Source: Malacoraja senta
Lineage: Eukaryota
Direction: 5' to 3'
DNA: 60,000 bases
NCBI GenBank assembly: GCA_038087875.1
Contig: CM075987.1
Span: 22,570,001 to 22,630,000 of the forward strand
Made by a program: the position numbers and the translations under genes. This document shows positions 2,244 to 54,000 of this stretch, piece after piece. A model generated the notes under the pieces. It had not been told where the DNA came from, did no database searches, and saw only the letters and a program-made list of their open reading frames with translations. The stretch's first letter is position 1; each line of letters opens with the position of its first letter.

Positions 2244-5200
2244 CTGTAGGATGTTATGAAAATAAAATAAATTGCCGTTTCAAACTTTAGTAGACACAAG
2301 AAAGTACATAGGCTGGTTTGCAACTTAAAAAGACAGTGCTGTAGTAAATCAGTGGGTTGGGCAGCATCTCCAGAGAACATGGATAGGTGACGTTTTGGGT
2401 TGGAATCCTTCTTCAAACTGAATGTAGAAGGGGGAGAAAGCTGGAAGAGAGGTGGGGATGGGACATAGCTGGGCAAGTGATAGGTGGATACACAAAAGGA
2501 GGGGCGTTGATTGGCAAAAACACATGATAAGACAAGTAGTGCGAGATAAGGACAGAAGAGTGAAACGTCACTCCTTCACTCTTTCCCCGTAAACCTGCAA
2601 ATGCCCATCCAGTTCCCTTTCAATGGCCATAGCAACTGTTTCCAGAGCAAAACACAAGGTGCTGGTGGAACTCAGCGGGCCAAGCAGCATCCGTGAAGGG
2701 AGTGGACAGGTGACATTTCTAGCCGGGACCCTTATTCAGATTGATTGCAGTTGGAGGGGATTGGAAAAGAGAGGTGGGGGACAAGACAAAGTTTAGGGGG
2801 GAGGGGGTTGATTAGCAGATGGGTGGAGTAAGTGACGGAGGCTGGAGGTGACTATTTCTTCCTCGCTCAATGGCAATGAGCCTATAGATCATAATTGCTC
2901 TATCAAAATGATTATCCTCACATTCCCCATCTCTATCTCATGCAGGACAGCCAGGTAATTTTCCTCTGTAAATTGCCCTTAGTGTGTAGGAAGTGAACTC
3001 GAAAATTGGATAACACGGAACTAGAATGAACGATGGTCGTCATGGACTTGTTGGGCCAAGGGGCTTGTTTCCATGCTGTTTCTTTCAATCAATCAATCGC
3101 ACCGAGTATGGATCCTCACCGTTAGGCCTGCTAGTCCCTTCCATTTGCTGATGCATTGCGTGTCGGTCCTGCCCGACAGCTCTGCAGCTATTTTGGCCCA
3201 TTTGCCTGTTAAAACAGAACGACATTGAAAACACTGAAACGATGTCTGGGAATAGAGTAACAAGTGATAAACTAGAATTTCAGTTCAGCAATTCAACGCA
3301 TTGAGACTAATTGACACCGAAAGGCACGTACCACTGTTTCCTGAGGACTTCACTGCTTCACAACCAACTGTTTGGCAACTTACGATCAAGCTGAAGATAC
3401 AGAGCGAGTGCGGGTAACACTTGTGAGCTAACAATAGAGGAACCAAGTTGTGGCTCGTTTGTTAGTGCTTGTCAAACGAGTTTGACCTAAACTTTGATAC
3501 TAGGGCGCCAATTTCAAAGCTGTTGCTCTTATTAGGCATTAGAGCCTTGAAGTATTTTCCAAATGACCACAAACATTTGTATGTGTTCCTCTGTCTTCCC
3601 CCTCTATCTTAAAGGCCATCCTTATGGATTACAATCAGAGCTGCCAAGTTTTGTCAGAGCATTCAGTATTCTAGTACCTGAAAATCAGTATTTTGCTGAG
3701 GAAATCAGTATTTTTACGTGGTGCCATTTTTGCTGAAAAGTGTTATTTTTTATGTGCGGTCATACCTATGCAAGAGTACAAGAATGCATAACTTTGCTAC
3801 CAATTGAAATGTCTTCTACGCACCTTACTTGACAGTGCATTCATTGCCATCTGTTTGTATACTGCTGTTTGAACGGCTGCTTCCTGCTTTCAGCACCAGA
3901 TGTGGAAGCCATTTTGGAAGCCTCTCTCTCTCTCTCCTTCCTCTCTTTCCCTCACTTTCCCTCCCTCTCCCTCTTTCCCTCCCACCCTCCCTATCTCCTT
4001 CCTTTTTTCTCTCTCTCCCTCTCTTATTCCCTCCCTCCCTCTCTCCCCCCCTAACAGTCTGTGACCCACAGCGCTGTGGCCATAGGGCTACGTGGAAAGG
4101 CAATCGCGCTCCAGCTGCGAGCACTATTTTAGAACCCATAGCGCTGTTCGTTTAAATTCCCACGTGTTAAACTGACAGCGCTGTTTAAACCTGGAGTGGG
4201 ACAGGCAGATCAAAGCTTACAAAAATAATCATGCAGATCTTGAAATTTAAAATACTAACAGATTTGCTATAATCTGCTATAATATTTAGAGGTACAGTAT
4301 GACTTTTTATATCCTTGCATTTTTTAAGCAGCAAGATGAAACAGGAAGTCAGGCTGATTTTTAAAAAATCCGTATTTTACAAAGCAAATCCGTACCTCCG
4401 TATTCTGATCGCATTTCCATACAAAATACGGAAAATCCGTACTACTTGGCAGCTCTGTACAATGCATTTATCATTTGTTAGCACCCAAGGCTCCTTAATC
4501 TGATTAGAAAAAACCTCCACACTCACTACTATATCTCTCTATCTTGTCAAATGAACCTGCTGTTTCCTAGAAATAGAGCAACCAAGAATAAATCGAGGCT
4601 GCTCGGAGCTGGAGGGGAAACAGGAAGAACATTCAGATGGAGGAAACAGCCTAGGATCGGAAAGAAGCTAAAGGTTTATTTTAAACTTTAGGGAATTACT
4701 TCAAAAAACGTGCAACTTTTTATATGACTTTACTTTGATGTTCTAGGCTGGAAATTATTTAATCTGTCTCTTACTTGTGAGCCAATAATAGGAAAGCATC
4801 TTGGACTGCAAGATGATATACAGATTAACATTCAATGGGAAGATTCAGGTCAATTATGAGAACCAAAAAAAAATCAAAGGCATATCTTATTGGACAAATT
4901 GAAGATATAATGAAATGTATTTTAAAAGAAAATGCAGAAGATTTTGTTTCTTTAGAAAGGACTTGCAGCACATATAATGCATAGTGATCACCACTTCAGG
5001 GCATGAGTGAGGAAAGGGAACCAAAAACTGGTAGAGTAGCAAAATGAGTTTTCAGGCCTTACGCGTGCACTCGTCTCTTACCGACTCCATGCTTCTCAAT
5101 CAATGCTTTAAAATCGCTCTCTTCTTTTTCAGTCCATTTTCCTTTCCTCACATCTTGATTTAAGCCATTCCGGTATCTGTGAACATTTTAAATAACCTTT

Positions 5201-8200: not shown

Positions 8201-11200
8201 CCACTCTCTCCTCTTCAGGTCCTTGTTAAACTCCTGATACTTCTGAAGACACATGTAAGCAGAACGGGATGTCTACAGTGGGAAGGAGAAAAGGGAAATT
8301 ACAATTTAAAGATGCTGGATTTTTTAAATCACCTTTAAAATTACTGTTGCACACATCTATCCATTAATTTAGGATAGACACAAAATGCTGGAGTAACCCA
8401 GCGGGACAGGGAGCATCTCTGGAGAAGGAATGGGTGACGTTTCGTGTCGAGACCCTTCTTCACTTACTCCAGCATTTTGTGTCCATCTTCGATTTAAACC
8501 AGCATCTGCAGTTCTTTCCTATCCAATGGCTTTACCGAGAAACTACAATGTCATGGATTCAAGTCTCATTCCAGGCTGGGCACAATGCCAGTGAACATTC
8601 CAGTGTGCTACTTACAGATGGCAGCAGATAAACAGAGGCAAAAGTGATCCCTTCCCCTTCACTGATTGCCCCTATTTGATGCATCAGCTTAATACCATGA
8701 ACGTGTAATACCAAAATACATCAACACCCAGAAATTGTTTAAAATAACCAATTACCTCATTGATTTGGATTTATCATTGGATTTATTGTGTGTAAAATTA
8801 AGCTAAAATATCTTCCTGCACTATAAATATTTAAATCTTTTGAAATATTAAGACGGCATTACAGAAAAACATACATTTTTCCTTGCTACAGTTTCATGAG
8901 ATCTTCAGTCACAGTTAACACTTCCTAATCAAGGTAATACAGAATAAAACCACTAGTAAAGAACGACCAAACGTAAACAACGGATCAACAACCGATCCTG
9001 GATAGAATAGGTCTCTCAATTAGAACCCTACCTGGGATAATTTGACCAGTTCACACCAAGTATTAGTAAGGAATTGTATCATTCAGATACAAGAGGATAG
9101 AATCCAGATCTAGCAGGCCTTGATCTGAATGCAATAAACCCAAGTGATAAAAAAGGTTCGAAGGGCTAAACACTTCACTTCTGTAACTATGTTCCTAACA
9201 TCTATCAGTGCATGTTGTTGCCATTTGATGTTCAGACCCTACTAGAATAAGCAAGACTCAGTTGAGCCTGATGAAGGGTCCAACCTAAAAAGTTGACTAT
9301 TACGACTGAAGGGCCCTGACCCAAATCGTCGCCTGTCCATTCCCTCTACAGATGTTCCCCCAACACTGTGTTTTGATCAGTTGTGAAGGCTTGCTGCTAC
9401 TGAATTGCTCTGTAGTAAACACAGTAAACCTAAGCTTAGAAAAGCCCATTAACCTGGTGGAACTCAACTTTTGCGCTGTGCAACATCAGTACCTGTAGCT
9501 CACTTGCAATACTCTCCCAGTCCACATAGCCAGCTCTCTTCGAGATCTCATTTAGCCGCTGTATATCTTCGCTGCTCCACTGGGTTTGATTGATGCTTGG
9601 ATGTTCAGAGTTCTGCCAGACCCTCTTGATATCTTCCGCCTTGCGAATTCCATCAAACTACAAACATAAAACATTTACAGGTTCAGTCGCGTGTTGAAGA
9701 CTCTAAAAGGGATGAAAACTCCTCTCACTGTTGGAACTGGACAGAGCATTCACATTTAGCAAGCTAGACAGTGTCTGAGTGAGTTTACTTCAGATCATCT
9801 GAGCCAAGAGGAGAAATCAGGCAGAGCTTTACCCCATCTGATCATTATCAAGTACAGCTGGCTGGATCAGAATGTTGAGCAAGTAAATAATTTTCAAGAT
9901 GAAAATTTCATCCATTGAACTTGAAATTGTATTCAAGCAACTTTAAGTTCAATGGATATCCAAGCAGACGGACAGATACAGAGTAGTAACGGCAGAGAAC
10001 AAAAGGATAGTGGGCGGGGGTAAGGAAACACAGAAAGACTGATGAACCCTAAACATACACCCATCAATATTGATTAAGAAAGAACTGCAGATGCTGGAAA
10101 AATCAAAGGTATTCAAAAATGCTGGAGAAACTCAGCAGGTGAGGCAGCATCTATGGAGAGAAGGAATGGGCGATGTTTCGGGTTGAGACCCTTCTTCAGA
10201 CTGAGTTTCTCCAGCATTTTTGTCTACCTTCGATATTGATATACTTACATCAATGTTGGAGATCTTTATCCAATCGTGGTCGTCAAACCTATTTCCCAAC
10301 AACTGCCGTTGCGTCATCTGGCTACAAAAGAGTTAAGGAGTAACACACTTTTATAAACCATGGCTAGAGTTGTTTACACTCACTCTCAGCCAGATGTAGA
10401 CATTAAATATCATTGGTTGAAAATTGGCAACACCTTTCCTTGTAGACTGTACTTAGTGGCAAAAAAAAAAAAAAAGCAAAAAGGCACCTCTTGTCAGCTC
10501 ACGATGTTTGACAGACTGGAATAGTAAATCCAATGAAATTCAGGTTAAATACACTTCACCTTCAGCAGAGACGTTCGTTCATTGTTTCATAAACATGCAC
10601 CAGCAGTAGGATACAGGGAAATAAATCTCATAGCAGACAGAATATTTTCCTCTGGCTTGGTGGTTGCCTACAAATTTAAAGCATTCCTGAGAAAACCATC
10701 ATCTTTATGCAAACACTTAACCCCGCCCCAAGCTTCATCAAATGACCCATCGTGTGGTCTTAATTCGATCATTGCATGGTCTATGCTCAGATATTACGCC
10801 TTATTGCACGAAAATGATCCCACCAGGTCGTATCTGAATGCTTTGCTTTTGCATTGAAGGCAGGTTCAGAAGTGCCAGCCTCCCCATTCCCAGTTTTCTC
10901 AATAAACTTGTACATAAATTGTGACTCGAGAATAATAAATATTCATTAAAAAATACATGCATAACTAAAAATTTTGTACTTGTCTTTAATTCAATGTTTT
11001 GATTAACTTTCTCCTCACCATGCCTGTGTGTGCATGAACAGACTCCCAAGCTGTTCCTCAGCTCTATCGGAATATGGCTGGACTCCATTTGAACAATTTT
11101 GCTCCATAGTCCTCAATATCTTCCTACCCCAAACTATAAAAACTATTTCTGGAAAACCAGCCCGAGCTCCTCCAAGAAACGCTAAACCACTGCTCACTGA

Positions 11201-17200: not shown

Positions 17201-20200
17201 GCATATCCAAAACCATGTTGTTTTAACTCAATTGCTCTTTCCATATCAGGCACCATTTATGGCTACACCTCTACAGCTTTCTCTGCTTTACTTCCAAAAA
17301 GCCTCAGTCAACAAAGTCTCACAGTTAATTCTGAATCCGAGCTGGGTTAGTTGATTTGTAATTTGCCTCAAACCCGTTGCAATAGGAACCAGTGACAAGA
17401 AATTATCAACGTCCCTGTAACTGATTACTATGTAGTTATAACTACAAAAATGGTTAGGATCACAATATGTGATATTTAGAGTCTTATATCCAGGTACATA
17501 CAATTTAGGCCAACACATGATGACCACTTAACTGAGATAAAGGAATTCATCTTTCCATGTTCTCCTTTCACTTCCAATTTATAGACAGAAGTGGAACATG
17601 GAAAGGAGATGAGGGGACAAAGCCCTGCAGTCACAAGCAACACTGGAACCGTCCTTTAGTGTTGAATCCCCCATTGTACAAGAACAGCTGGGTGGTCACT
17701 GACACCTCCAAAAGAGGTTGGATCTGTGCATCAAATCTTCCACTGGGATTACTACCAATGCCCTACTTTTTCAAGTCACCTCAGCCACGTACACTCACCT
17801 GCATTTCCTTATTGTGGGTGAGCAGCAACGCCAGGTCCTGCAGCTTCTCCACAATCACCTCCTGGTACACCAGATTCATCTGTAGGCACGTCTCAGGGTC
17901 CTCGGGAAGATCATCTCCCTCGTCATCCGAAATACTGTCAGGGAGCCGAGGTGCAGTTTCACTGACAGAGGCCTCCACCTGAAGACAACAAAGTTACTTC
18001 TTCCTCTACCCTCTGCATTGTCTTAAAGACAAATGAAATATCTGGGGATCTAGTCAATAACCACAACAGGTTAAGAAGATTTAAAAGGAGATTGGCATGA
18101 AATTAGAGGTACCCAAGGCTTGCTTGCCAGCAATGTCTCTCAGGTGGAAGGTTGTAGCTGTTTTCATTATAGTTCATTTATGCATTAATGGCAGTACTTT
18201 TTCCCTGTCCTCAAATATTAATGAGCTGGGAATCAGCTATATTCTTGAACCTCAATCCATGATAATGGTATTCTCAGTGCTGCTGCGTAGGGTGATACAG
18301 TACTTGGAGCTATTGACACTGAGGGATGGAAAAGATCCCTAAGTCAGGAAAGTGGTTTACTTGGAAGGGAACCTGTAGGCAGTCCCATGTACCTGCTGCC
18401 CTTATTGTTTAGGAATGTGTAGGAAAGAACTGCAGATGCTGGTTTAAATCGAAGGTAGACACAAACTGCTGGAGTAACTCAGCCGGACAAGCAGCGTCTC
18501 TGAAGAGAAGGAATGCTGCCTGTCCCGCTGAGTTAATCCAGCAGTTGGTTTCGCCCTTATTGTTTAGGTGACAGAAGCCACTGATTGAGAGGTGCTGCTG
18601 AAGAACCCACAGAACATTGTTGCAAAGGACTTTGTAGACGGTAGATACCAGAGGCATGGACGAAGGAAAGAAGGAAGGAATGTTTAAGGCAAGGACTGGG
18701 TTCCAATTAAGTGAGCCGCTACTTCCTGGAAGGGGGTCACAGCTCCATCCAAGCCTTGGCATGCTGTAGATGGTGGAATGGATCTAGGAGTTAGTAGACC
18801 AATGCTATGTAGAGTTTCGGACTGTAAGGAACTTCATATTTGTTTTGAAGGAGGTGTAAACAAGGATCAGTAGATTCCTAGAACAAAGCAGCTCACATAA
18901 AACTGAGGTTGTGCAGATTGAGTCTACTCATTGCAGCGTTGAAGAATGAGAGCTGATATTATTAAACCAAGGATTCTGAGGGGGAATTCAACAGGTTGGA
19001 GGCCGAGACGATTTTTCCCCTTGTAGGGCTATCCAGAACTAGGAGGCCAAGTTTCAGAAGCACCTTTACTCTTCTAATTCATTAACTGTTAAGAAACCCA
19101 CAGCAATCGGCAACCCACCTATCGAAATGTTTTAGAAGAATTTACAAACGAACAGTTTATGCACTGCTATTGAGATTGTTCAATGGCCTCGAGTATGCTC
19201 CAAGGCAGCCTGCCTTTTTATAAGCTGATGCTTGTTCTGTAAGAGATATTCTGGGATCAAGTAAAGAGGTCCTTACCAGAGAAAGGCACTGCTCTTCTAC
19301 AGATTTTTCTTCAGCATCATATCCTGCCGATGTAAGAAAGGGCATTACCTCACAAACAAGGCAAGTCAGGATTCTGGGAGGAACATTACACTCTATATTG
19401 ATGCAAGATATCCTCAAAGTGCATAAAATTGGAATTACATCATCCTAACCCAGATAAGGAGCACTGCCATTCAATAATATCGACCAGCATCCCAACAAAT
19501 GTCCCAAGCAATCTTTTGCCTCCTTACATCCCCAGTAAAATTTTCCAGTTGTGATGAAAGTTCATCTGCATAAAACGTTAATTTTGTTTCATGCTGGCAT
19601 TTCTAGCATCTTTAGTGTGTATCCCATTATCATTAGACACAATAGCTGGATATATAAAGCACTGTTTAGGCACTGACACTATTGCATAAAACGCAAGCAC
19701 CACTCACAATGCGTGCATTTTGGTCACTGCCGATTTTGAGCCACAATATCCTATTTAATTTTATGTATTATGCAGTAATCATGAAAGTGTATAATTAATA
19801 ATTTACAATATAATTCTTCATATTTTTATGGGAGGGATATAGAGAGAAAGAAGGAACAGGTTACTGATTCTGGCTGATCAGCCATGATCATATTGAATGG
19901 CGGTGCTGGGTCGAAGGGTCGAAGGGCCGAAAAGCCTACCCCTGCACCTATTTTCTATGTTTCTTCCCTTCTGCCCTATGTTAGCTCAGAGAGAAGATTA
20001 AATGTTCATCTCCTGGTCAGAGAAACCCAATGAAGGGTTGTCAATACCAGGTCAGAAAACTCTCAGCTCATCATAGCCCTTGATCCCCATTCAGATGACA
20101 CATTCAGTTAATAAAAATGAAGATGATTAACTCTAAGTTTGTTGATCACATCCCCATCTAATGACCTTGTTAATCCAATCAAACACCCTCCCTCACACCA

Positions 20201-21360: not shown

Positions 21361-21470
21361 AAACACTTCTGAAGAAGGGTTTCGGGCCGAAACGATGCCT
21401 ATTTGATTCCTTCGCTCCATGATAGATGCTGCTGCACCCGCTGAGTTTCTCCAGCACTTTCGTCTACCTT
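21361..21470 (+). repeat. Penelope-derived short repeat with hammerhead-like core
   Basis: CTGAAGAAGGGTTTCGGGCCGAAACG; flanked by CATCAGAA(T/C)TC. Confidence 0.75.
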
Positions 21471-21934
21471 CATCAGAACTCAGCCCTTCTTCCCCGTCCG
21501 ACATCCATCGCCGTCTAAACTCCTTCCTTGAGGACCAGGAAACCAAGATACAACCCACATCCCCCAATTCCAGGGCTGCCAACTCTCACGCTTTCAGCGT
21601 GAGAATCACGCCTTGGAGAAAATTCTCACGCCCTCACGCTCAAGACCGAGTTCTCACGCTGAGTTCAGTCCCTGCAGTTTGTCCCCTTGCGCCGCGTGCC
21701 AGGATTCTGGGGAAGCGCGTCGGTTGCCGGCTGTGATTGACGTCGCGTCTCTTCTCTCTTGGTTGGATGTGCAGCCCGCCGGGTGTCAGCAGCTCTATGT
21801 GCCGGCTGTGAGCGCTGCGCTGTCGGCCGCCGCGCAGCCCTCGCTCGCTCCCTCCTGCCCTTCAACTCACACGGCAGCGCAGCGCCGCCAATCCACGCTG
21901 CACCGTGCCCGCCAGACTCCCCATTGGGCGGGCC

Positions 21935-22450
21935 GGGGAGAGAGAGGGAAGGGGGGAAAGAGAGAGAGAGAGGGAAAGAAAAAAAGGGAGGGATGGAGGC
22001 AAAGCGAGACAAGGGGAGGGAATGTAGAAAGGGGATGAAGGAAGGAGTGGAGAAAGAGGGAAGGATGGGGGCAGGAGGGAGGAAGGGGTGGATGGAGGGA
22101 GGGGGAAGAAAAGGTGTGTGTGCTTGTGTGTCTGTCTCCCCTGTGTGTGTCTCCTTGTGTGTGTGTGTGTCCCTGTGTGTGTGTCTCCCTGTGTGTGTGT
22201 TCTCCCCGTGTTTGTTGTTTGTCTCCCTGTGTGTGTGTGCGTGTCTGTGTCTCCCTGTGTGTGTGTCTCCCTGTGTGTATGTGTGTCTCCCCGTGTATGT
22301 GTCTGTCTGTCTCCCTGTGTGTGTGTCTGTCTCCCTGTGCGTGTCTGTGTGTCTCCCTGTGTGTATGTGTGTCTCCCCGTGTATGTGTCTGTCTGTCCTC
22401 CCTGTGTGTGTGTGTCTTCCTTTGTGTATGTGTCTCCCTGTGTTGTCTGT
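21935..22450. repeat. GA-rich tract followed by (GT)n/GTCTCCCT compound minisatellite
   Basis: Directly visible low-complexity sequence; source of several spurious long ORFs. Confidence 0.95.
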
Positions 22451-23715: not shown

Positions 23716-23920
23716 GGCACGGTGGCGCAGTGGTAGAGTTGCTGCCTTACTACCACATGGGTTTTCTCTGGATATTCCGGTTTCTCCCATATCCGAAAGA
23801 AGTGCAGGTTTGTAGGTTAATTGGCTTCTGTAAATTGTCCCTGGCGTGATGGATGGAATTGGTGTATGATAGATTGCTGGTCGGTGTGGACTTTGTGGGC
23901 GGAAGGGCCTGTTTCCATAT
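23716..23920 (+). mobile_element. HE1-like tRNA-derived SINE (internally deleted)
   Basis: GGCACGGTGGCGCAGTGGTAGAG head, GGTTAATTGG core, GAAGGGCCTGTTTCC LINE-like tail. Confidence 0.75.
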
Positions 23921-24017
23921 ATATTTTTACATATATATCTTAATTTCATTGAACCATATATGATTGAATATGTGGCATTATTTTCGTCTTGTTTCTATAT
24001 TCAAAGGGTAAGGTTGA

Positions 24018-24151
24018 AACCGTCTGAAGAAGGGTTTCGGCCCGAAACGTTGACTATTTCCTTCGCTCCATAGATGCTGCCGCACCCGCTGAGTTTCTCC
24101 TGCAATTTTGTCTACCTTCGATTCTCCAGCATCTGTAGTTCCTTCTTGAAC
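24018..24151 (+). repeat. Penelope-derived short repeat with intact hammerhead-like core
   Basis: CTGAAGAAGGGTTTCGGCCCGAAACGTT at 24024-24051; flanked by AAGGTTGA (24010-24017 / 24152-24159). Confidence 0.8.
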
Positions 24152-25064
24152 AAGGTTGATTGATTTATTTGTGCAGAACAGTGATGGAAGTCCGACTTTT
24201 GCTTTGTTTCTCTGAGTTTTTCTCTCTATATATACATAACAGCATGAATATAATCTGATTTCCATATATGAATACAGTCATTCATGTGCTGCACCTGTTG
24301 ATCAGAGCCTGGCTCTATTGTGGAATGTAATTAGGAATGTAATTTAGCCTAACCTTATTCATACCTCATCCAATGTAAAGCATAAATGTTGCATTCAAAT
24401 GCAAGTTAAAAGACTCGCTACAGAATGCACCAGATTGCACAATTTCAAGCTGAAAAATGCAAAAGCTCCCACACCCCCCCCCCAGTCGCTACGCTCCCTC
24501 ACAATTTCTCACTCTCAACTCTCACCCAATGTTAGCAGCCCTGCCTAATTCTAATCTAGCATCCCACCTCACCCGTCCCCCAGCCAGTTCCTCAACTGAC
24601 CCCCATCATCACTTCTCATCTTTCTCATCATTCCAAGCCTCCGTGTCCCTACTAAACTCCATGCCACATGCACCCAAATTCCCATCACTTTTTCTACTGC
24701 AAACTACTACACACCACAAGCCTTAAAGTGCATCCCTTAAACTCCCTTCCTATCGCACTGCAGCCTTTGCCCATTCCTCCCACATTTCATGTTCCAATCA
24801 TCTCCGCTGTACCCAATCCTAGTTGCCATCATGTGCTCCCAATTGAACCCAATGCATATGTCGCATCAGTGGATCAGTTCCTCAGCTACCCAAGTTCACA
24901 TTTCAACTAAGAGCAGTTTAAGATTATTTTAAAACCTGCAAACAAAGCTCATCTCTTGAAGTGACAGTGAAACTGCTATGTTGTTATTGCAACAACAGTT
25001 TTTGAGTATTTCATTGAGAAATGTAACTACTGCCATGACATGTTTTAAAAGTGTTTGGTATTTA

Positions 25065-27675: not shown

Positions 27676-30600
27676 CTAAAAGGGGAATAAAAAAGCAGAT
27701 TATAAGCTTGGCAAGTTTTGCATTGCTACTAATTTAGATCTTCTGTGAGTTACATAGATATAAATCTTCATAGGAAAAATATTTCTATTACATTGATTCT
27801 ACTGGGATTTGAACCCAGACAAGATGAGAAACATTCCATCTCTATAATAAACACAAAAAATGCTAGACGCACTCAGCAAATTGGACTGCATCTGTGGGAT
27901 GAGAAATAAGGTTTCAGGTCAAAGGCCCTTTGTCAGGTCTAATTCTGAATCCCTGTTATATAGGGTTAATGTGGACACTCCAAGTCATTCAACAATCACA
28001 CTTATCCCTATAAGTCAGAGGGTAGGGACGCTCCTGGCCGAGCAACTGGGAACACTGTGGCCTGGGCTGTTCAAAGCCACACTGCTTGCCCTTGAACCCA
28101 CAGAGCTACTGGGGACTCATAGAAACATAGAAATTAGGTGCAGGAGTAGGCCATTCGGCCCTTCGAGCCTGCACCACCATTCAATATGATCATGGCTGAT
28201 CATCCAACTCAGTATCCCGTACCTGCCTTCTCTCCATACCCTCTGATCCCTTTAGCCACAAGGGCCACATCTAACTCCCTCTTAAATATAGCCAATGAAC
28301 TGGCCTCGACTACCCTCTGTGGCAGAGAGTTCCAGAGATTCACCACTCTGTGTGAAAAAAGTTCTTCTCATCTCAGTTTTAAAGGATTTCCCCCTTATCC
28401 TTAAGCTGTGACCCCTTGTCCTGGACTTCCCCAACATCGGGAGCAATCTTCCTGCATCTAGCCTGTCCAACCCCTTAAGAATTTTGTAAGTTTCTGTAAG
28501 ATCCCCTCACAATCTCCTAAATTCTAGAGAGTATAAACCAAGTCTATCCAATCTTTCTTCATAAGACAGTCCTGACATCCCAGGAATCAGTCTGGTGAAC
28601 CTTCTCTGCACTCCCTCTATGGCAATAATGTCCTTCCTCCAATCTTCTACTCCAATGGCAAAATGTTGGTTTCATCTCCAAAATGTTCTCCTGGTCTGAA
28701 CAGTGGAAGATGGAGAAGGCAGAATTAGCAATTCAAGGAGGCACTTCAATGAGGAATGAATGAAAGAGATGGGTCTGAGAGATATTGGATAGATGTGGGA
28801 GATTTGGGGAAAGATTGTAGGGTACAAAATAAACTTCCTAACTATTCATCCCATTCACTTCAATTATTTCCCTCGTCCAGTGTCTCCAATATTCTTTTGT
28901 TATTATAAAGCATTCAACTTGTCTTCCTGAAGAGTAAGTTGTCAGGTGCGTACTTCACCGAGGTCTCTGCTTCATGTGCAGTCTTCACAAGATAATCTGA
29001 GGCAAGTCGAGCACTGTTTTTTGCTGAACTCAGAGCAGCAGAATCTTGAGATCGAAGTATTTCATTCTCAGACTTGGACTGTTGCAGTTCTGCCTGTCAG
29101 CACAAAACAAATACACAATGAGATCCACATACAGTGAAGAGTGAAGGAGAGGGAGAAGAAGAGAGATGAGAGAGAGGAAAAGAGATGAAGGAGAGAAAAG
29201 AAGATGAGATAAAGGAGAGAAAGAGAAACGGGAGAGACAGAGGATAGAGAAAGAGGGGAGTGAGAGAAATATTTAAAAATAAAATACAATTCACACCATA
29301 CCTGTAGAGTTACAAGTTCCTGTCTCAGTTTAGTCACTGTGTTCTCTGCTTTCACAGCCCGTTTCTGAAATATATTAATAAATACAAAGACTTAATTACA
29401 AATCCAGTTATTTCAGTGCTGGTTGTTTCTCTCATGCAACCTTGTTAAATCAAAAGGTACTGGTAATGTTTCAACCAATTTGAATTTGAGCCAGAAAATG
29501 TAATTTCCATCTGTGATCCGAGCCTCGTCAGCCACCTCAACTGAGCTGGAACTATGACCCGAGACAAGATAGACACTAAATGCTGGAGTAACTCAGCGGG
29601 ACAGGCAGCATCTCTGGAGAGAAGGAATGGGTGACGTTTTGGGTCGAGACCCTTCTTCAGACTGAGAGTTAGGGGAGGGGGAGATACTTGAGATAACTTC
29701 ACTTTGCACTTTTTTTTTAAGACCAAAGATGCAGGTGAGGCCACAAACGTGAAGGAGAACTGAACTGGGGTACAGCTTTGATGAACCCCCAGAGATGTTC
29801 TAAGGAGAGCTACAGTAGCAGGGTTCTGCCCTTTCTCACAGGTTCTATCCTCACCGTCATCAGTTGCAGATTCTCTTCGACTTGCTGAACAATCGCTTCC
29901 AATGCTCGTGCCTCCTTCACCTCTTTAATTTTCCTTTTCTCCAGATCTTCTTCCAATCTCTTGGTCCTGGAAAAATGGCCAGTGGACACTGCATTATAGT
30001 ACATCATTACAGCACATCAATGTCGCTGTTTGAGGTCCCCCAGAGTAGCAACACAAAATGTCCCTTTACCACCATATGTCATTCCCCACTATCTTGACGA
30101 TGTGCATGTTCTTTGACACCAATTCCCGTAGCACCCCCCCCTTTCCCTAAATGCAATAGCAATTATACACAAGAGCGATTATACTATGCAGTGATTTTCT
30201 GCAGTACCACTACAACTAGCATGTCATAATGTTTTACCCTTGTGGCCTACAACGAACAAGTGAAAGGTCAGAGTCCAAGCCCTTCCAGCCAACCTCCAGC
30301 AGTTTAATGAAGGACAAAGGACATTTATTGTCACATACACCAATTGATGCAGTGACATTTGAGTCACCATGCAGCACACAAATAAGATAAACACAACACA
30401 ACATTGAACATAAAACATAAAAGCATCCCCCCACAGCGGAATCAACGTTTCCCCACTGTGAGGGAAGGCAACAAAGTTCAGTCAACTTCCTCATGTTCAA
30501 CCGTGGTCGGGGCCTATTGAGGCCTCTGCAGTCGCCGCAACGGCGGCCTGATGTTTCAGGCCCTCAAACAGAAGAACACTCTCAGCGGCTTGGAGTTTCA

Positions 30601-33600: not shown

Positions 33601-36600
33601 AAGAGGTGGGCACAATTATATTTTAAAAACAGTGAAACTTGGATGGATAATAAAGATTAGGAGGTGTATGGGTCAGATGTAGACAAATGGGACTAACTTG
33701 CATAAGCAACTTATTTAAGAAGGAACTGCAGATGCTGGAAAATCGAAGGTAGACAAAAATGCTGGAGAAACTCAGCGGGTGAGGCAGCATCGATGAAGCG
33801 AAGGAATTTCCTTCGCTCCATAGATGCTGCCTCACCCGCTGAGTTTCTCCAGCATTTTTGTCTACCTGCATAAGCAACTTGGTCGGCATGGATGTGTTGG
33901 ACTGCAGGGCCTGTTTCCATGCTGTATAGCTCTATGACGAGGGGAATGTCTGGGAACTATAATAATGGGCATTTATATGGTTTCCTTAGAGTAACACAAG
34001 GAGTATTATCAAAGAAACAATTGCACTAAGCTACATTCCCAAGATTGTATCTACTGTTAAAAAAAATTGAGAACAATTGTTTTTCTAGATCAGTAGACAG
34101 CCATTGCAAGATGAAAATCATTTTAATGACCAAAGGACAACTAATTAGAATCAAGGACTGTAGCACCATATCTAAAGTAGTTGTTGATCTGACATGTTAT
34201 GCATACATCAGCTCTGAAATCCTGACAGGGCCAGAAATACTGGATATGGGGAGGATGTTTCCCTTGACTAAGATCAAGGATGAGCATTCTCAGTCTTGGG
34301 CAATAGGGAGCGAAATAAGGGTGTTTCTTCACTTAGGTGAACCTGTGGAATTCTCTTCCACTGAGGCTATAAAGGCCAAGTCACTGCATGTTTTAAAGAA
34401 GTAGATATATTTCTAGACAGTCGGGGAAGAGAGCAGGATAATGGCTTGAAATAGATGATCAACTATCATGTTGATTGGCATAGCAGGCTTGTAGGGGCAT
34501 ACGGTGTATTTTCTCCGATTCCATTAAAATCCAATCTCTCTACCCCCTCCTCCTCCTTTAATTAGCTGGTAAACACTTCTGTCCTAATATACCTTTATAT
34601 GGATCATTGTTAGGTTCTGTATTATAAACACACTTGTGAAGTATATTAGAACATAAGACAAGAGAGAAATGGTCCCTCGTGCTACTCAATAAGATCAGTT
34701 GATCTACATCAACTCCATATCCCCTGATTCCCTTGGTATTCAAACACCTGTCAATCTAGTGTTGAATTGTAGTCTGCAACTGATAACCCTCATGACTTGG
34801 GTTAGAACATTGCAAAGCGTCACACCAATTTGAGTGAAGACGTTTCTCTTCATCTCATTCCTGGATGACTTACATAATCTGATTGTGAACTCTGGCTCAA
34901 AGCATTTCAGACGGGGTACATAGCCTCTCATTATCCTTTTTCCAAAATGCTTACACTAATAAATGCCATTGCTATGAGAATATAGGCCCATACAGCACCT
35001 TCAGTTCATAGTGGATCTGCTTTCTCATCTCTTCCCTTTTCGTTGTTGATCGACTTTTAATCTTGACAAATTCCTTAAAGGAAAAAGGGTTTGATTCTTC
35101 ATCATTCTTTTCCTTTTCACCTGGAAGTGGTAGAAAATTAAATGATACAGTTGGATACAGTATGGCAACATTTTGCTGTATGAGCTGGCCTTGATTAGGC
35201 CAAATTGATAAATTTGGTTTTCATAGCTCTAGGTTAGGGAGGGGGGGGGGGATACATAATCAGTCAGTGTTCTTGTACTGGTGGTTTATACTAGGAAACA
35301 CCCGGTGGATATTGAAAGGTTTATTAGTGCGATACTCTGGAATAGGTGAAAGGACACAAAGTGCTGGACTAACTCAACAGGTCTCACAGCATCTCTGGAG
35401 AACAAGGATAGGTAACTTTTCAGGTGCTCCACACTGGAATAGATAGGTTGCCTTGCGAGAAGAATTTGGACAGGCTAAGGGTGTTTTCACTAGAATTCAG
35501 AAGTGGAGATTTGATTGAAGTGTACAAACTTCTGAAGCCTTGACAGGATGTTTATAACTGGAGTCATTGTTTAAAACCAAAGGGTCACTATTTCAAAACA
35601 AAGACAAGGCAATCCTATTTTTGCTATTCCCATTTTTGAAATATCTTCCTCAAAGGTAGATAGATGGAATGCCTGACCAGCTGAGTTACTCTGCACTTTG
35701 TGTCTTTTGTAACTGCCTTTTGTCTTTTGTGTCAATGCTGAGAACTACATTCTGTACTCTGGTATCCATACCTTCACTCTACCTGCAAAAACAAGGAACT
35801 GCAGGTGTCGGTTTACAGAAAAAGACACAAAGTGCGAGAGTACCTCAGCTGGTCAGGCAGCATCTCTGGAGAACATGCATAGGTAACATGTCAGGTCGTG
35901 TCCAGCCTGAAATGTCACCTATCCACGTTCTCCAGAGATGCTGCTCTGTCCTTCACTCAACCTATTGTACTTGAGTTTGGCTTGATTGTATTTATGCATA
36001 GCATTATCTGAATTGACTGGATAGCATGTAAAATAATACTTTTCACTGTACCTCGGTACACGTGACAATAATAAACCTAAACTAAAGATTCTAGGTAAGT
36101 AAGGGGCGGGTGGGAAGGATTAGGATAGGCAGTCAGGAATGCAGAGTGAGATTTGTAATCAGAGCAGTCTCTATTTTTGCTTGTGTTTGTCGCCCTGCAA
36201 AAGACTGAAGTTCCCAGAGACACGAACAGTTCAATGCCTCCAATTCCACCACAACTCAAACAGGAGGGGGATCAACACAAAATGCTGGAGTAACTCAGCG
36301 GGTCAAGTTGCATCTCTGGAGAGAAAGAATGGGTGACATTTCGGGTCGAGATGCTTGTTCAGACCGAGAGTCAGGGGAGAGGGAGACTAGCGATATGGAA
36401 GGACAAGGTATGAAAACGACAGATCATAGCAGACGATGTTCAAGGTAGTGTACAATCTCTCCATCCCTCCCCACCCTAGTTCTCCAACTAGTTTCACTGT
36501 CCTGATTAATTTTACTGATTATACGCCTATTCACACAATATCTGTCGTTTTCACACCTAACCCTTCCATATCTCTAGTTACCCTCTCCCCTGACTCAGTC

Positions 36601-37104
36601 TGAAGAGAAGGGTCTCGACCCGATCCGTCGCCCATACCTTCTCTCCAGAGATGCTGCCTGACCCGCTGAGTTACCCCCAGCATTTTGTCTCTGTCTACAA
36701 TGGTTCATTGTTAGCCGAGGGGTGGAAACCTCACTTGCAAATGAGGCCAGACTACTGTCGTTTTCACACCTTACCCTTCCATGTCTCTAGTTTCCCTCTC
36801 CCCTGACTCAGGCTGAAGAAGGGTTTCGGCCCGAAACGTTGCCTATTTGTATTTCCTTCGCTCCATAGATGCTGCTGCACCCGCTGAGTTTCTCCAGCAC
36901 TTTTGTCTACCCCTTCTACATTGTTAGCCGATGGCGAGGTGACAAGGAGGCACACAATCAGTAAAACCCCGCCTGCGTGGTAAAAGTCGCATCTTCTCCC
37001 ACTTTGTCATCGGGTGCATGGACAGCTCCCGCAGTCACAACGCCCATTGCCGCCGCCATTGCCGCCGCCTCCTCACCTCGCTCTCCCCGGGAGCTCATCC
37101 TCAT
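27567..37104 (-). CDS. ENTR1: Endosome-associated trafficking regulator 1 (SDCCAG3), ~363 aa
   Basis: Exons 37077-37104, 34999-35120, 31589-32032, 30943-31016, 29855-29966, 29302-29364, 28954-29093, 27567-27675 join in frame. Motifs EESNPFSFKEF and coiled-coil ALEAIVQQVEENLQLMTKRAVKAEN; syntenic position. Confidence 0.9.
28118..28640 (-). mobile_element. CR1-like LINE 3' fragment
   Basis: ORF2 C-terminus (RTRGHSLRIRG..FFTQ) and tail (CATAGAAA)n on the + strand. Confidence 0.85.
28954..29093 (-). CDS. ENTR1: ENTR1 exon
   Basis: AELQQSKSENEILRS...AHEAETSV; cag|...|gtacgc. Confidence 0.88.
29302..29364 (-). CDS. ENTR1: ENTR1 exon
   Basis: KRAVKAENTVTKLRQELVTLQ; cag|...|gtatgg. Confidence 0.93.
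29855..29966 (-). CDS. ENTR1: ENTR1 exon
   Basis: TKRLEEDLEKRKIKEVKEARALEAIVQQVEENLQLMT; cag|...|gtgagg. Confidence 0.93.
30943..31016 (-). CDS. ENTR1: ENTR1 exon
   Basis: LKEENALLRRQTKEAKQLAKDHVR; tag|...|gtacga. Confidence 0.88.
31589..32032 (-). CDS. ENTR1: ENTR1 large internal exon
   Basis: 444-nt open frame containing SLDEEDDDWSETYQPAVIE; cag|...|gtaagt. Confidence 0.85.
32100..32510 (-). mobile_element. Rex1/Babar-like LINE 3' fragment
   Basis: The - strand reads ..YRSLKVHIAKLGNSFFPSIIG.., resembling a Rex1-type ORF end. The tail TTTATTGTCA..GTACCGAGGTA..GTGAAA recurs near 36040, 38255 and 54348. Confidence 0.55.
33713..33866. repeat. Penelope-derived near-perfect fold-back insertion with 14-bp TSD
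   Basis: ~60-bp arms centred near 33807; TGCATAAGCAACTT at 33699-33712 and 33867-33880; inserted in a LINE tail. Confidence 0.85.
34999..35120 (-). CDS. ENTR1: ENTR1 exon 2
   Basis: EKEKNDEESNPFSFKEFVKIK...; cag|...AAG|gtgctg. Confidence 0.85.
36275..36915. repeat. Cluster of Penelope-derived repeats (inverted and tandem copies)
   Basis: 36275-36415 is inverted relative to 36545-36695. A further copy at 36755-36912 has CTGAAGAAGGGTTTCGGCCCGAAACGTT. Confidence 0.75.
37077..37104 (-). CDS. ENTR1: ENTR1 probable first coding exon
   Basis: MRMSSRGER + G|gtgagg; phase 1 matches the next exon; start codon uncertain. Confidence 0.55.
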
Positions 37105-37262: not shown

Positions 37263-48793
<11,531 letters not shown>

Positions 48794-51009: not shown

Positions 51010-54000
51010 CTGAAGGAGTAAAGCAGACAAGTTGAATGCACTCTGAAATATTCTGCTGCACATTCCCTAATATTCAATTTAGCTTAATACAGAACCAGTG
51101 GAAGTTCTTTATTTTTGCCCCCATTTTGGGATATTCACGATAGTCCTTAGACTCTCTGGTTATCAAGGACTCAGTAAAGAAAGATGTGTAGACGTTGAAC
51201 AGAAAAGAGAGCTGCCCTACAGGACCAGAAAAACATTTAGCATGGCAGGGGAGCAGAAATAAAAACAATGTCTCACTTGTCTTTTCCGGGTCGAATCTTT
51301 ACTTGATAGAAGCAGTAGACAGGTCTGTGGTCCGAGGTTTTGATAGAGCTGCAGGAGCCATACTTAACCACAAGAATGTCATCTTTATGCCGATTCTTGT
51401 AAATGATTCTGTCCTGGAAGATGAGGGGAATAAGTTGCCTTTTGTATTGATATGAAATCAAGACTCCAACGGAAGGTAGACTGGAGATCCTTCCCTCACC
51501 CCCACCCACTGCTTGTTGTGTGTGCATCTTACAACCATATTCTCTACATTACAACTCTGACCGAGATTCAAAGGGACACTTTTTGCTGTGAAACACAGTC
51601 CTTTCAGTTCTAGAGTTCAGTCTTTAGAAGACTTATCTAAACATCTGCAATTCCCTCACAAACTCAAATGTTCATAAGTTCTACGGGCAGAATTAGGCCA
51701 TTCGGCCTATGAACGCCATTCAATCATGGCTGATCTATCTGTCCCTCTCAATCCCATTCTCCTGCCTTCTCCCCTCGACACCTTTTGAATTTTCTTGTTT
51801 TCAAACATAGGTAGAGTTCCCTTTTAAAAAAAAAAAAAGATGCTACCATCCTTTCAGACTTCTAATGGATGATCATAACAGCTGCATTAAAAATGTCTTA
51901 TCCTCCCTCTGGTTCATTTAATACAACTCTTAAACATGCCTCTTCTGGTTATTAACTATCCTCCCCAGTGGGAAGTATTCCTCATTTTATCCAAGCTTAA
52001 ACTGCTGACTTATGAGAACCTCAGATGGAATTCCTTTTAGTTTTCTGCTTCAAGAACAATTTTAGCTTTGTGCAGGGACTCAGCTAATCGGAAGATTAAA
52101 CAAGCGGGAAGACAGGTTAAAGAAGGGACAGCCACAGCCAGAGATTCTCACAGAAATAAAACAAACTCCTTCCATTGATTCCTTACCGTATAAGAGGGAG
52201 TCCTTTTCTTGGAACTACTGTCGTATACATCACATCCAACGTCAAATTTGTAGGTGGGTGGAAAACATATTTCAGCTTCTTTGAAGCCTTTGAAAACAGA
52301 CCCTGAGGAATTAGGAAAGATCAGGTCAGTGAGCTTTAATGATGTTATCACCTTGATACATAGGATGTGGACTGAAAAGTGCTGCTGTCAGATCATCTGC
52401 AAGCACATTGCCTCACTGCGTCCACCACAGACGGGCGAGGTTCCAATTGCTAATTGCTCTGAACTTTATACTATAGTGAATTAGTGCCCATGGAACATAT
52501 CCCACTGAGAGTTTGTGCACAGGAAACAAGTACTCTTGGAGAGTCACCTGCACCCCATCAGGTCTAGATGCCTTAGAATCCACAGCCTAGACCAGCCCTC
52601 ACCCTGCTGCCCACCCCAAGTTGATGGAAGGTTCACAATTCATCCTACCCTCCTGTAGTTTCCTGGTTAACTCGTCATAATGTAAAATAGAGCAGAGGTT
52701 TTCCTGGCTGTTGCTGTCCAGGAGCTCGTCGATCACCGCTCGCTTTACATCCAGCCGAAAGTTGAAGTCACCAAACCAGAAAACATTGTCAAACCGAGAG
52801 GTCACATCATCTACAGGAATGGGAAAATAAAAAAGAGAAAACGCTTTACTCCTAGTTATATCAAATTATGAAACTGTGTCGCAGGCCATGTCAGCCTGGT
52901 TTAGTGGCAGCACACCAGATGAATGCCAGAAGTTCACTTCTGTACACTGCAACGCTCACATAACGCTTGTTATTATATCTATCAAGCTGGGGGCTCTGAT
53001 CATGGCTTCAAGGACATGGAGGGCTTTAGATGTGAGGGGTGGACTGAGAAGGTAGGCCTTTTAGTTACAAAGTAACTTTCACATTGAAGCTTTTTATCTT
53101 CACTGGATCATGAGCTCATTGTATAAGGTCATAAGTGATAGGAGCAGAATTAGGCCCTTTGGCCCTTCAAGTCTACTCCACCATTCAATCATGGCTGATC
53201 TATCTCTCCCTCCTAACCCCATTCTCCTGCCTTCTACCCATAATCTTTTGACACCCGTACTAATCAAGAATCTATCTCTCTGCTTTAAAAATATCCATTG
53301 ATTTGGCCTCCACAGCCTTCTGTGGCAATGAATTCCACAGATTCATCATGCTCTGATGAAAGACATTCCTCATCTCCTTCCTAAAGGAACGTTCTTGCAG
53401 GAGTCAGGCCCTGTGGCCCAACTACCATTAAGCACTAGAAAAATGGAATGTGCTGGCAGAACTCAGCAGGTCAGGCAGCATCTGTGGAGGAAATGGACAG
53501 GTGCCATTTCAGGGACCTCCGATCAATTTGCTGAAACACATATCCATTCCCTCCACAGATGCTGCCTGACCCGAGTTCCTCCAGCAGTTTGTGTTTTGCT
53601 GAAGATTCCACACCTGCAGTTCTTTTAATATCAATTTATAACTAAGTTTACTCTAATCCCATTTTATTCACCCCACACTTCTATCGACTCTCCTCCAGAC
53701 TTGGCACTCACCTAAATGTTAGAGGCGATTTATAGTGATCAATTGACTTACCAATCTGCACATTTTTGAGATGTGGATGGGAACTGGAACACCCAGAGGA
53801 AACAACTTTCAAACTCCACATAGACAGCACTGTAGGTCAGGATTGAACCCAGGTCACCAAGTTTTGAAACAGGAGCACTACTAACTCCGCTGTTATGCCA
53901 GCCCATTTTTCTATATAACATCTCCCAACCAGAAAACACCAGAACTGAGAGAGTATATACGTCAAGGAGGGCTCGACCCGAAACGCCCCCCATTCTTTCT

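What the first reader, a model, noticed from the sequence alone, without database searches (positions are those of the whole stretch)
24018..24151. Short interspersed family carrying a minimal hammerhead-ribozyme-like core
Seen: CTGAAGA-AGGG-TTTCGG-CCC-GAAA-CGTT at 24024-24051 and 36813-36840. Variants (GGGTCTCGACCCGAAACGTC type, mostly with substitutions) occur on either strand near 2390, 2710, 8433, 9268, 9305, 10168, 16770, 19548, 21369, 23542, 29630, 36332, 36600, 40781, 40822, 53965 and 58225-58320, i.e. more than 15 in 60 kb. Known: CUGAnGA / stem II / GAAA / NUH is the hammerhead core, and minimal type I hammerheads with a palindromic stem III (here ACGT) that act as dimers occur in Penelope pLTRs and retrozymes. 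Inference: this is a very abundant non-coding, Penelope-mobilised, ribozyme-derived SINE/retrozyme-like family lying in introns of housekeeping genes. Caveat: stem I pairing is poor in these copies, so many may be inactive.
Basis: partly seen in the sequence, partly recalled or inferred. Interest (0 to 1): 0.75.

Follow-up and report, generated by a model that had tools for sequence, protein, structure and literature searches.

The report
Penelope retroelement tails carrying hammerhead motif
The repeated motif is real, but it is the non-coding tail end of a very abundant Penelope-like jumping gene. A minimal hammerhead-ribozyme motif is already a described feature of such elements, so the finding is right in outline and ordinary in kind.

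Summary
The 28-nt string is exact at 24024-24051 and 36813-36840. A profile finds 37 family pieces in the 60-kb window, and 52 in 100 kb of arbitrary pieces of the same 1.94-Gb genome (about 5.5% of bases).

The family is not a free-standing SINE. It is the 3'-terminal, pseudo-LTR part of Penelope-like elements (PLEs). [quoted passage not shown]

Window copies show the PLE insertion signature:
- severe 5' truncation;
- two alternative 3' ends about 36 nt apart (the "tail");
- abutting head-to-head pairs with the tail on one arm only;
- target-site duplications of 8-14 bp.

The motif has the published marks of metazoan PLE minimal hammerheads: an extra base after A9, a G10.1-C11.1 pair, a palindromic ACGU and a weak helix I.

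Activity is not shown. Rfam models miss it, no covariation is seen, monomers do not fold as hammerheads, and only 11 of 43 sampled copies keep the core. RNA reads show no ends at the predicted cut. This is a new member of a known kind, of low interest.

The parts
24018..24151 (+). One 134-bp insertion: a 5'-truncated PLE tail, long form (with the ~36-nt tail). It is flanked by an 8-bp target-site duplication AAGGTTGA (24010-24017 and 24152-24159).
   Evidence: Sequence. Profile hit 24017-24154, model 28-165. 93.8% identical over 96 nt to the 3' end of full-length PLEs L036 and L038 (L037: 93.8% over 97 nt).
24024..24051 (+). Minimal hammerhead-like core. CUGAAGA (C3-A9), an extra A, helix II GGGU/GCCC closing loop UUCG (U-G as the fourth pair), GAAA, a palindromic ACGU, and U at position 17. 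The predicted cut lies after 24051.
   Evidence: The features match the min-HHR description in PMC4209133.
36792..36911 (+). PLE tail, short form, holding the second exact copy of the core (36813-36840). It is the second unit of a head-to-tail pair with 36580-36695.
36275..36695 (.). An inverted copy (36385-36275, minus strand) facing a forward copy (36580-36695). The arms extend about 60 nt upstream of the core.
   Evidence: the repeat finder I1-I4 and D1-D2; profile hits.
33713..33866 (.). Palindromic mini-insertion. The inverted arm carries the tail (33807-33709, model 67-166). The forward arm is short form (33806-33872, model 67-133). It is flanked by a 14-bp duplication TGCATAAGCAACTT (33699-33712 and 33867-33880).
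18414..18554 (.). Head-to-head pair: an inverted long-form arm plus a forward partial arm. It is flanked by CCTTATTGTTTAGG (18400-18413 and 18555-18568).
58133..58386 (.). Complex insertion: an inverted long-form arm, a short forward piece, then a forward short-form arm. It is flanked by CCTCTAAATCTTT (58120-58132 and 58387-58399).
10069..10236 (.). Inverted long-form copy with an intact core boxes (10206-10069, minus strand), abutting a forward internal piece (10200-10236).
8367..8527 (.). Head-to-head pair: an inverted short-form arm (8462-8367) and a forward piece with the tail (8463-8527).
21368..21475 (+). Tail copy whose core differs from the 28-nt string at 2 positions.
40729..40947 (.). 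Head-to-head pair whose junction lies inside the core region: 40828-40729 on the minus strand and 40805-40947 on the plus strand.
53448..54095 (.). Three decayed tail copies: 53525-53448 (minus), 53538-53635 (plus) and 53964-54095 (plus).
2297..2764 (-). Two old tail copies (2448-2297 and 2764-2649) with decayed cores.
29566..29682 (-). Short-form tail copy of the older TCTCGA type. G12 is mutated to A.

Best explanation
The family consists of dead-on-arrival, heavily 5'-truncated copies of Penelope-like retrotransposons (PLEs). Each piece is the last 60-170 nt of the element's pseudo-LTR region.

Shown here:
- The element then runs on about 66 nt (short end) or about 102 nt (long end, with the 'tail') past the predicted cut site.
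- One full-length copy starts with the same 21 nt that end it, so its cDNA covered slightly more than one unit.
- Window insertions carry target-site duplications. About two in five pieces lie in abutting head-to-head pairs in which only one arm has the tail.

Inferred from published work on a reptile PLE (PMC11167929):
- The element's protein nicks both DNA strands.
- It starts reverse transcription at two adjacent internal sites of the RNA.
- It usually aborts within 100-170 nt, and the two cDNAs are joined. This would give the short single and inverted pieces seen here.

The CUGAAGA-A-stem II-GAAACGU(U/C) motif is the element's own minimal type I hammerhead. My best guess, at about even odds, is that in the active lineage it cuts multimeric element RNA weakly, as a dimer and/or with the help of the element's protein. 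In most genomic copies it is a mutated relic with no function.
For: 1. ORF adjacency.
- L024 and L025: the GIY-YIG frame (Pfam PF01541, 30.5 and 27.9 bits, cut-off 22.6) stops 88 and 114 nt before the motif, on the same strand.
- L036-L038: open frames of 1222-1224 aa with RVT_1 (E 6.7e-6) and GIY-YIG, the stop, 119 nt, then the exact 28-nt type of motif.
- Homologues are 670-1130-aa RT proteins, many with GIY-YIG.

2. Terminal redundancy. In L036 the 21 nt at 3246-3266 equal those at 7165-7185.

3. Two 3' ends. Of 89 profile hits, 29 end at model 119-135 and 32 at 157 or beyond.

4. Orientation. There are 19 abutting head-to-head pairs against 4 tail-to-tail. The arms are long+short in 8, long+other in 8, other+other in 3, and never long+long or short+short. 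An inverted EN-plus-tail copy sits before a forward copy inside one duplication in L024.

5. Target duplications at 24010/24152, 33699/33867, 18400/18555 and 58120/58387.

6. Motif features named for metazoan PLE min-HHRs: a base between positions 9 and 10.1, a G10.1-C11.1 pair, palindromic 15.2-16.2, a short helix I, and dual motifs on opposite strands 100-700 bp apart (PMC4209133, whole text read). All are present here.

7. A second, distant PLE family of the genome (27% identity) has its own CTGACGA-A-stem-GAAAC motif once per unit, about 350 nt before its frame.

8. [quoted passage not shown]
Against: - The window itself holds no PLE coding remnant: tblastn with two PLE frames gave no hit at E 0.01. 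The link therefore rests on loci elsewhere in the genome.
- RVT_1 (26.4 bits against a cut-off of 29.6) and GIY-YIG (19.3 against 22.6) fall below Pfam's cut-offs in the young full-length frame.
- No named PLE protein appeared among the homologues, and no RT tree was made.

Against a working ribozyme:
- No Rfam hammerhead model matches at gathering score in the window, at E up to 10 on 23980-24180, or at E up to 1 on L021, L024 and L036.
- Paired cells are 73.5%, against 73.8% in shuffles, with no covariation.
- Helix I is 58.7% paired.
- Monomer folds are not hammerheads and are no more stable than shuffles (z 0.45 to 0.80 for three, -0.51 for the fourth). The young type prefers a GUUUCG/CGAAAC hairpin that buries GAAA. 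The hammerhead-shaped fold is worth only +0.5 and -2.7 kcal/mol.
- Core columns (0.88 identity) are no better kept than other blocks of the tail; columns 99-115 and 141-155 are mostly above 0.9.
- Only 11 of 43 unselected copies keep all core bases, and 3 of 43 also keep helix II and the palindrome.
- Only 1 of 89 pieces starts exactly at the predicted cut.
- Two raw RNA runs show no pile-up of read ends anywhere on the stretch.
Confidence: 0.85

Rival explanations
1. A separate non-autonomous family (a SINE or non-LTR retrozyme) shares only its 3' end with PLEs and is copied by their enzyme in trans. Some pieces would then come from short master genes or small circular RNAs rather than from truncated autonomous elements.
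For: Some copies share about 60 nt upstream of the motif that I could not match to the 3' UTRs of L024 or L036 (36540-36596 and 36755-36809). Two head-to-tail pairs exist: window 36580/36792 and L043 8981-9235. Non-LTR retrozymes are reported to be PLE pLTR derivatives in vertebrates (bioRxiv 10.64898/2026.07.22.740005, Results read). The copy number is very high, about 0.5 hits per kb.
Against: The 5' ends are scattered over model positions 4-136 with no fixed head. ARAGORN finds no tRNA in 22400-24700. The same tail ends autonomous elements with intact frames. Head-to-head pairs (19) far outnumber short tandems. RNA reads show no discrete ends.
Confidence: 0.1
2. The hammerhead look is a by-product. 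The stretch is conserved as a hairpin or protein-binding site of the element's RNA and has never cut RNA in this lineage.
For: There is no covariation, helix I is weak, no Rfam hit was found, alternative hairpins are favoured, and conservation is no higher than in the neighbouring blocks. In vitro insertion by a reptile PLE did not need its hammerhead, and no RNA-seq ends were seen at its cut site (PMC11167929, Main text read).
Against: The stretch has ten invariant core bases in the right order and spacing, plus three accessory marks that the 2014 survey found to be recurrent and not imposed by its search. The motif sits in the pseudo-LTR, as in the PLEs surveyed in that paper. A second PLE family of the same genome holds an analogous motif. 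The reptile motif does cut when the protein is added, and its C3/G8 mutants behave as expected.
Confidence: 0.3

Closest known systems
Minimal hammerheads (min-HHR) in the pseudo-LTRs of metazoan Penelope-like elements (Cervera and De la Pena 2014, PMC4209133)
   Same: Type I layout. There is no closed helix III but a palindromic ACGU. An unpaired base sits between A9 and G10.1, with a G10.1-C11.1 pair and a short, poorly defined helix I. The motif occurs once per pseudo-LTR, mostly as scattered single copies from truncated elements, and also as pairs on opposite strands.
   Different: Helix II is 4 pairs (a fifth would leave a 2-nt loop), against the 6-8 reported for the flatworm and fly examples. 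Helix I is only 2+2 pairs around a 2x2 mismatch. Self-cleavage is untested here.
PAc, the Poseidon-type PLE of the green anole, studied in vitro (Frangieh et al. 2024, PMC11167929)
   Same: Two adjacent internal start sites for reverse transcription, which explain a 30-40-bp optional tail. Both DNA strands are cut and extended. The hammerhead motif lies in the pLTR-ORF junction region.
   Different: In PAc the frame begins inside the hammerhead and the start sites lie 111-118 nt into the frame. Here the predicted cut lies 137 nt before the ATG, and both 3' ends lie before it (L036).
Non-LTR retrozymes of animals (PMC7229834, abstract only; bioRxiv 10.64898/2026.07.22.740005)
   Same: Short non-coding units with type I hammerheads related to PLE pseudo-LTRs.
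   Different: Retrozymes are short tandem arrays that give small circular RNAs. Here the pieces are mostly single or head-to-head, with scattered 5' ends.
Canonical EN+ PLE insertion architecture (Craig et al. 2021, PMC8557442)
   Same: A high degree of 5' truncation, partial tandems, an adjacent inverted 5'-truncated copy, and a 30-40-bp tail often present at only one end.
   Different: None found. The share of very short pieces (100-170 bp) and the total load (about 5.5% of sampled bases) are high, but I did not compare them with other genomes.

Membership tests
Penelope-like element (canonical, EN+) | A single open frame with a reverse transcriptase followed by a C-terminal GIY-YIG nuclease | tested here: met
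   In L036, RVT_1 covers aa 708-877 (E 6.7e-6, below the cut-off) and GIY-YIG covers aa 1128-1161. GIY-YIG is above the cut-off in the related frames of L024 and L025. The frames are 1222-1224 aa.
Penelope-like element (canonical, EN+) | Pseudo-LTR or partial-tandem organisation | tested here: met
   L036 has a 21-nt terminal direct repeat. Head-to-tail tail pairs occur in the window and in L043. No complete tandem of the 1224-aa family was examined.
Penelope-like element (canonical, EN+) | An inverted 5'-truncated copy next to the forward copy | tested here: met
   19 abutting head-to-head pairs against 4 tail-to-tail among 89 hits. L024 has an inverted EN-plus-tail copy and a forward copy inside one duplication.
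Penelope-like element (canonical, EN+) | An optional 30-40-bp tail, often at one end only | tested here: met
   3' ends cluster at model 119-135 (29 of 89) and at 157 or beyond (32 of 89). In the 19 abutting pairs there is no long+long or short+short case.
Penelope-like element (canonical, EN+) | A reverse transcriptase of the telomerase-related PLE clade | not tested
   No tree was made. The homologues carry no family names.
Hammerhead ribozyme, minimal type I of PLEs | Core bases C3 U4 G5 A6 G8 A9, G12 A13 A14 A15.1, U16.1, and a non-G at position 17 | tested here: met
   Met in the named copies (24024, 36813, L036-L038), in 11 of 43 unselected copies, and in 13 of all 46 aligned.
Hammerhead ribozyme, minimal type I of PLEs | Helix II with G10.1-C11.1, an extra base after A9, and palindromic 15.2-16.2 | tested here: met
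   Helix II cells are 84-88% paired, and CG is at positions 15.2/16.2 in 28 of 46 rows.
Hammerhead ribozyme, minimal type I of PLEs | A helix I of about 4-5 pairs | tested here: inconclusive
   Two pairs, a 2x2 mismatch, then two pairs in the young type. 58.7% of cells are paired overall. A 2-bp helix I is reported for the D. virilis motif.
Hammerhead ribozyme, minimal type I of PLEs | A match to curated hammerhead covariance models | tested here: not met
   No hammerhead family appeared. The 2014 survey needed a relaxed descriptor of its own, so this test is weak for min-HHRs.
Hammerhead ribozyme, minimal type I of PLEs | Self-cleavage at the predicted site | not testable with these tools
   Indirect only: no read-end pile-up in two RNA runs, and 1 of 89 pieces starts at the site.
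SINE | A pol III-type head (tRNA, 7SL or 5S) and a fixed 5' end | tested here: not met
   5' ends are spread over model positions 4-136. ARAGORN finds 0 genes in 22400-24700. A and B boxes were not searched for in the family profile.
Non-LTR retrozyme | Short tandem units, each with a hammerhead, giving circular RNA | tested here: inconclusive
   Only two head-to-tail pairs were noted. Circular RNA could not be tested.

The most novel reading that the evidence does not exclude
The genome is a natural record of the PLE insertion reaction. About 5.5% of its DNA would be mini-insertions of 100-170 bp. Roughly two in five pieces lie in head-to-head pairs that never carry the tail on both arms or on neither. 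Often the two arms break off at nearly the same template position.

This would fit a model in which the two halves of a dimeric RT-nuclease start at the two adjacent sites of one RNA and prime on the two DNA strands. That goes beyond the in vitro report, which saw no difference in start site between strands.

A bolder add-on: the change in helix II of the currently expanding subfamily (UCUCGA to UUUCGG) creates a competing hairpin that works as an on/off switch for the hammerhead.
Probability: 0.25. Interest if true: 0.5.

Novelty: new member of a known kind. Interest (0 to 1): 0.2.

Why it matters
The finding gives the right name to a repeat that may make up about a twentieth of this genome and that litters the non-coding DNA of this window. 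Annotators often miss or misfile PLE tails, as Craig et al. 2021 note for PLEs in general (passages).

It adds a vertebrate-scale genome in which a PLE lineage looks recently active. Many loci give the same protein score, and three loci have open frames of 1222-1224 aa.

The many short, dated insertions could be mined for the rules of PLE integration. They do not by themselves add to what is known about hammerhead ribozymes.

Tried and rejected
- Rfam gave no hammerhead. This covered the window at gathering scores, 23980-24180 at E up to 10, and L021, L036 and L024 at E up to 1.
- Covariation counts on 46 aligned motif regions were no better than shuffles.
- RNAalifold on 22 long-form tails downstream of the motif gave 6 pairs at -1.47 kcal/mol with no compensatory change. 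No structure is claimed for that part.
- Monomer and homodimer folding did not favour the hammerhead shape.
- I tested whether pieces start at the predicted cut. One of 89 starts there exactly. Five start at model 67-68, four of them as arms of inverted pairs. This is not enough to claim processing.
- tblastn of two PLE frames against the window gave no hit.
- No RNA holder was listed for L036:5800-7190. The raw RNA runs laid (X21, X24) belong to coded organisms other than the best DNA holder, and most reads are only 90-95% alike. They therefore say little about the young subfamily in the source species.
- The paper of Lunse et al. (PMC5785218) is not held. I saw only its title in a reference list, and a summary in PMC6765202.
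Density and end statistics rest on the window plus ten 10-kb pieces.
- Dfam and Repbase are not on hand. Whether this family already has a name is unknown.
- Supplementary figures of PMC4209133 (motif alignments of fish PLEs) were not opened.

Full report
**What is there**

A third copy sits at 21369-21396 with two mismatches. None is expected in shuffled sequence. The commoner variant string gives 10 matches at up to 3 mismatches, against 0 expected.

BLAST with the region gave 36 local matches in the window. A profile seeded with one natural copy (L025:5388-5645) and rebuilt once gave 37 hits in the window, covering 5.9% of its bases. It gave 52 hits in ten arbitrary 10-kb pieces of the same genome, covering 5.5%. 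Extrapolated to 1.94 Gb, this is on the order of a million pieces. That figure rests on only 100 kb.

9268 is a degenerate neighbour of the hit at 9307. 19548 is not a member.

**The named interval**

24018-24151 is one 134-bp insertion between 8-bp direct repeats AAGGTTGA at 24010-24017 and 24152-24159.

It lies inside a larger repeat. That repeat has a common end near 24541 and variable starts, and its copies elsewhere are 89-96% alike over up to 2 kb. This is why the genome search returned 40 matches, including the window's own copy, at 98-100% identity over the 134 nt. The small insertion was carried along when the larger unit multiplied.

**What the family is**

A search of the genome for GIY-YIG domains, then for one of the frames found, led to loci where the family follows a coding frame on the same strand.

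- In L024 and L025, a frame with a GIY-YIG domain above Pfam's cut-off stops 88 and 114 nt before CTGAAGA.
[quoted passage not shown] Both are significant by E-value but below Pfam's cut-offs in this frame.
- Each of these frames stops 119 nt before the same type of 28-nt motif. The element ends 66 nt after the predicted cut.
- L036 begins with the 21 nt that also end it. It then runs through 36 more nt, which are the 'tail' of the long-form copies, and reaches its ATG 71 nt after the repeat.
- Read as a tandem unit of about 3.9 kb, the motif lies 119 nt after one frame and 137 nt before the next, in a spacer of about 283 nt. This is the pseudo-LTR logic of Penelope-like elements (PMC11167929, Main text; PMC6765202, passages).
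- Database homologues of the RT-nuclease part are 670-1130-aa proteins with RT domains, many with GIY-YIG. Only a few carry source names, such as 'uncharacterized' or 'hypothetical protein', from invertebrate genomes.
- The window itself has no PLE coding remnant.

**Insertion signature**

3' ends fall in two groups about 36 nt apart. Of 89 hits, 29 end at model 119-135 and 32 at 157 or beyond. The rest are cut short by divergence or truncation. 5' ends are scattered from model 4 to 136.

Nineteen pairs of hits abut head to head, against 4 tail to tail. The arms are long+short in 8 pairs, long+other in 8, other+other in 3, and never long+long or short+short.

Clear target duplications flank whole head-to-head inserts at 33699/33867 (14 bp), 18400/18555 (14 bp) and 58120/58387 (13 bp). 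In L024 they flank an inverted copy that includes nuclease coding sequence.

Craig et al. 2021 describe exactly these traits for PLEs: strong 5' truncation, partial tandems, an adjacent inverted truncated copy, and a 30-40-bp tail often at one end only (PMC8557442, passages). Frangieh et al. 2024 trace the tail to two adjacent internal start sites of reverse transcription. They also show that their element cuts and extends both DNA strands.

**The motif as a hammerhead**

Read on the standard numbering, the young type is:
- CUGAAGA (C3-A9);
- an extra A;
- helix II GGGU/GCCC closing loop UUCG, with U-G as the fourth pair (the older type is GGGU/ACCC closing CUCG);
- GAAA;
- CGU;
- then U or C at position 17.

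A15.1-C-G-U16.1 forms the palindrome ACGU, which could pair between two molecules.

Cervera and De la Pena 2014 (whole text read) list recurrent marks of metazoan PLE min-HHRs: a base between 9 and 10.1, the G10.1-C11.1 pair, palindromic 15.2-16.2, a short helix I, and scattered single motifs or pairs on opposite strands. All are seen here.

A second PLE family of this genome has an analogous CTGACGA-A-stem-GAAAC motif once per unit, about 350 nt before its frame. That family has 759-aa frames in tandem arrays and is 27% identical. I take this as good evidence that the motif is the element's hammerhead by descent.

**Is it active?**

This is not shown, and several tests came out neutral or negative.

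- Rfam's hammerhead models do not match.
- On 46 aligned copies the proposed pairs are kept in 73.5% of cells, the same as in shuffles (73.8%), with no excess of double changes. Helix I is kept in 58.7%.
- Core columns average 0.88 identity. Upstream columns average 0.62, but the 65 columns downstream average 0.81 and the tail 0.80. Several downstream blocks are mostly above 0.9.
- Only 11 of 43 unselected copies keep all core bases, and 3 of 43 also keep four helix II pairs and the CG palindrome. The commonest losses sit in CpG contexts.
- Monomers fold otherwise and are no more stable than shuffles. The young type prefers a hairpin that buries GAAA. The hammerhead-shaped fold is worth +0.5 and -2.7 kcal/mol, and the ACGU duplex -3.1 to -4.9.
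- One of 89 pieces starts exactly at the predicted cut.
- Raw RNA reads of two coded runs cover the tail 1000-4800-fold in both directions alike, and the coding part about 15-430-fold. No place shows many molecules beginning or ending. These runs are polyA or oligo-dT libraries of organisms coded differently from the best DNA holder, and only about 5-6% of each run was read. This is weak evidence.

The picture agrees with the literature. Min-HHRs cut poorly in vitro even as dimers. The anole motif cuts only with the element's protein, is not needed for insertion in vitro, and leaves no read ends in RNA-seq.

**Verdict**

It is wrong in treating the family as a separate SINE or retrozyme: the pieces are the element's own truncated tails. 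The kind is already described, so the case is a new member at most. Whether the family has a Repbase or Dfam name could not be checked. Earlier notes of this scan on other genomes reached similar verdicts for PLE hammerheads. I did not test them.

Noticed in passing
window 19982-20079 (-): A C/D-box snoRNA matching Rfam snoZ30 (77.6 bits, gathering score 50, E 1.7e-14). This was the only Rfam match at gathering score in the window.
   Followed up: no
window before 22518 to about 24541 (+); L002-L008: A larger repeat with a common end (...GGCAGCCCTG) and variable starts. Copies elsewhere are 89-96% alike over 0.85-2 kb. It carries the 134-bp PLE tail, an older inverted tail (23577-23442) and other pieces as passengers. 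What kind of element it is was not worked out.
   Followed up: partly
window about 23712-23925 (+): A stretch beginning GGGGTGGCACGGTGGCGCAGTGGTAGAG looks to me, from recall, like the head of a tRNA-derived SINE. ARAGORN calls no tRNA there. One related locus (L002) starts its similarity at this point.
   Followed up: partly
L021-L023, L009-L020 (other contigs of the genome): A second, distant PLE family has 759-aa frames, 27% identical to the first. It stands in long tandem arrays with periods of about 1.4-7.5 kb, including a run on contig C14 near 18.24-18.41 Mb. Each unit has its own CTGACGA-A-GCUA...UAGC-GAAAC motif about 350 nt before the frame.
   Followed up: partly
L036, L037, L038: The long N-terminal, proline-rich part of the 1222-1224-aa frames holds a repeat of about 26 aa (…PTDPDYTAHGPRPSGP…) present one, two and three times in the three loci. 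Dozens of loci give the same protein score, which suggests very recent spread.
   Followed up: no
window 118-1107 (-); 12693-13348 (+); 44055-44411 (-): Remnants of a Tc1/mariner-type transposase (DDE_3, HTH_Tnp_Tc3_2) and of LINE-type endonuclease/reverse transcriptase.
   Followed up: no
window 6694-6972 (-), 7982-8272 (-); 51276-52865 (-): Probable host exons: Myb-type DNA-binding pieces, and three pieces matching successive parts of an inositol-polyphosphate-phosphatase-type domain (PF22669) on the minus strand. PLE tails lie between and around them.
   Followed up: no
window about 21650-22530: A low-complexity CA/TG- and GA-rich stretch gives long spurious open frames on both strands.
   Followed up: no
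L036:5800-6930 in run X21: Over the coding part, pairs whose first mate lies on the + strand outnumber the others about 2-6 to 1 in one polyA run, but not in the oligo-dT run. The tail region is balanced in both. The library type is unknown, so the transcribed strand cannot be told.
   Followed up: no
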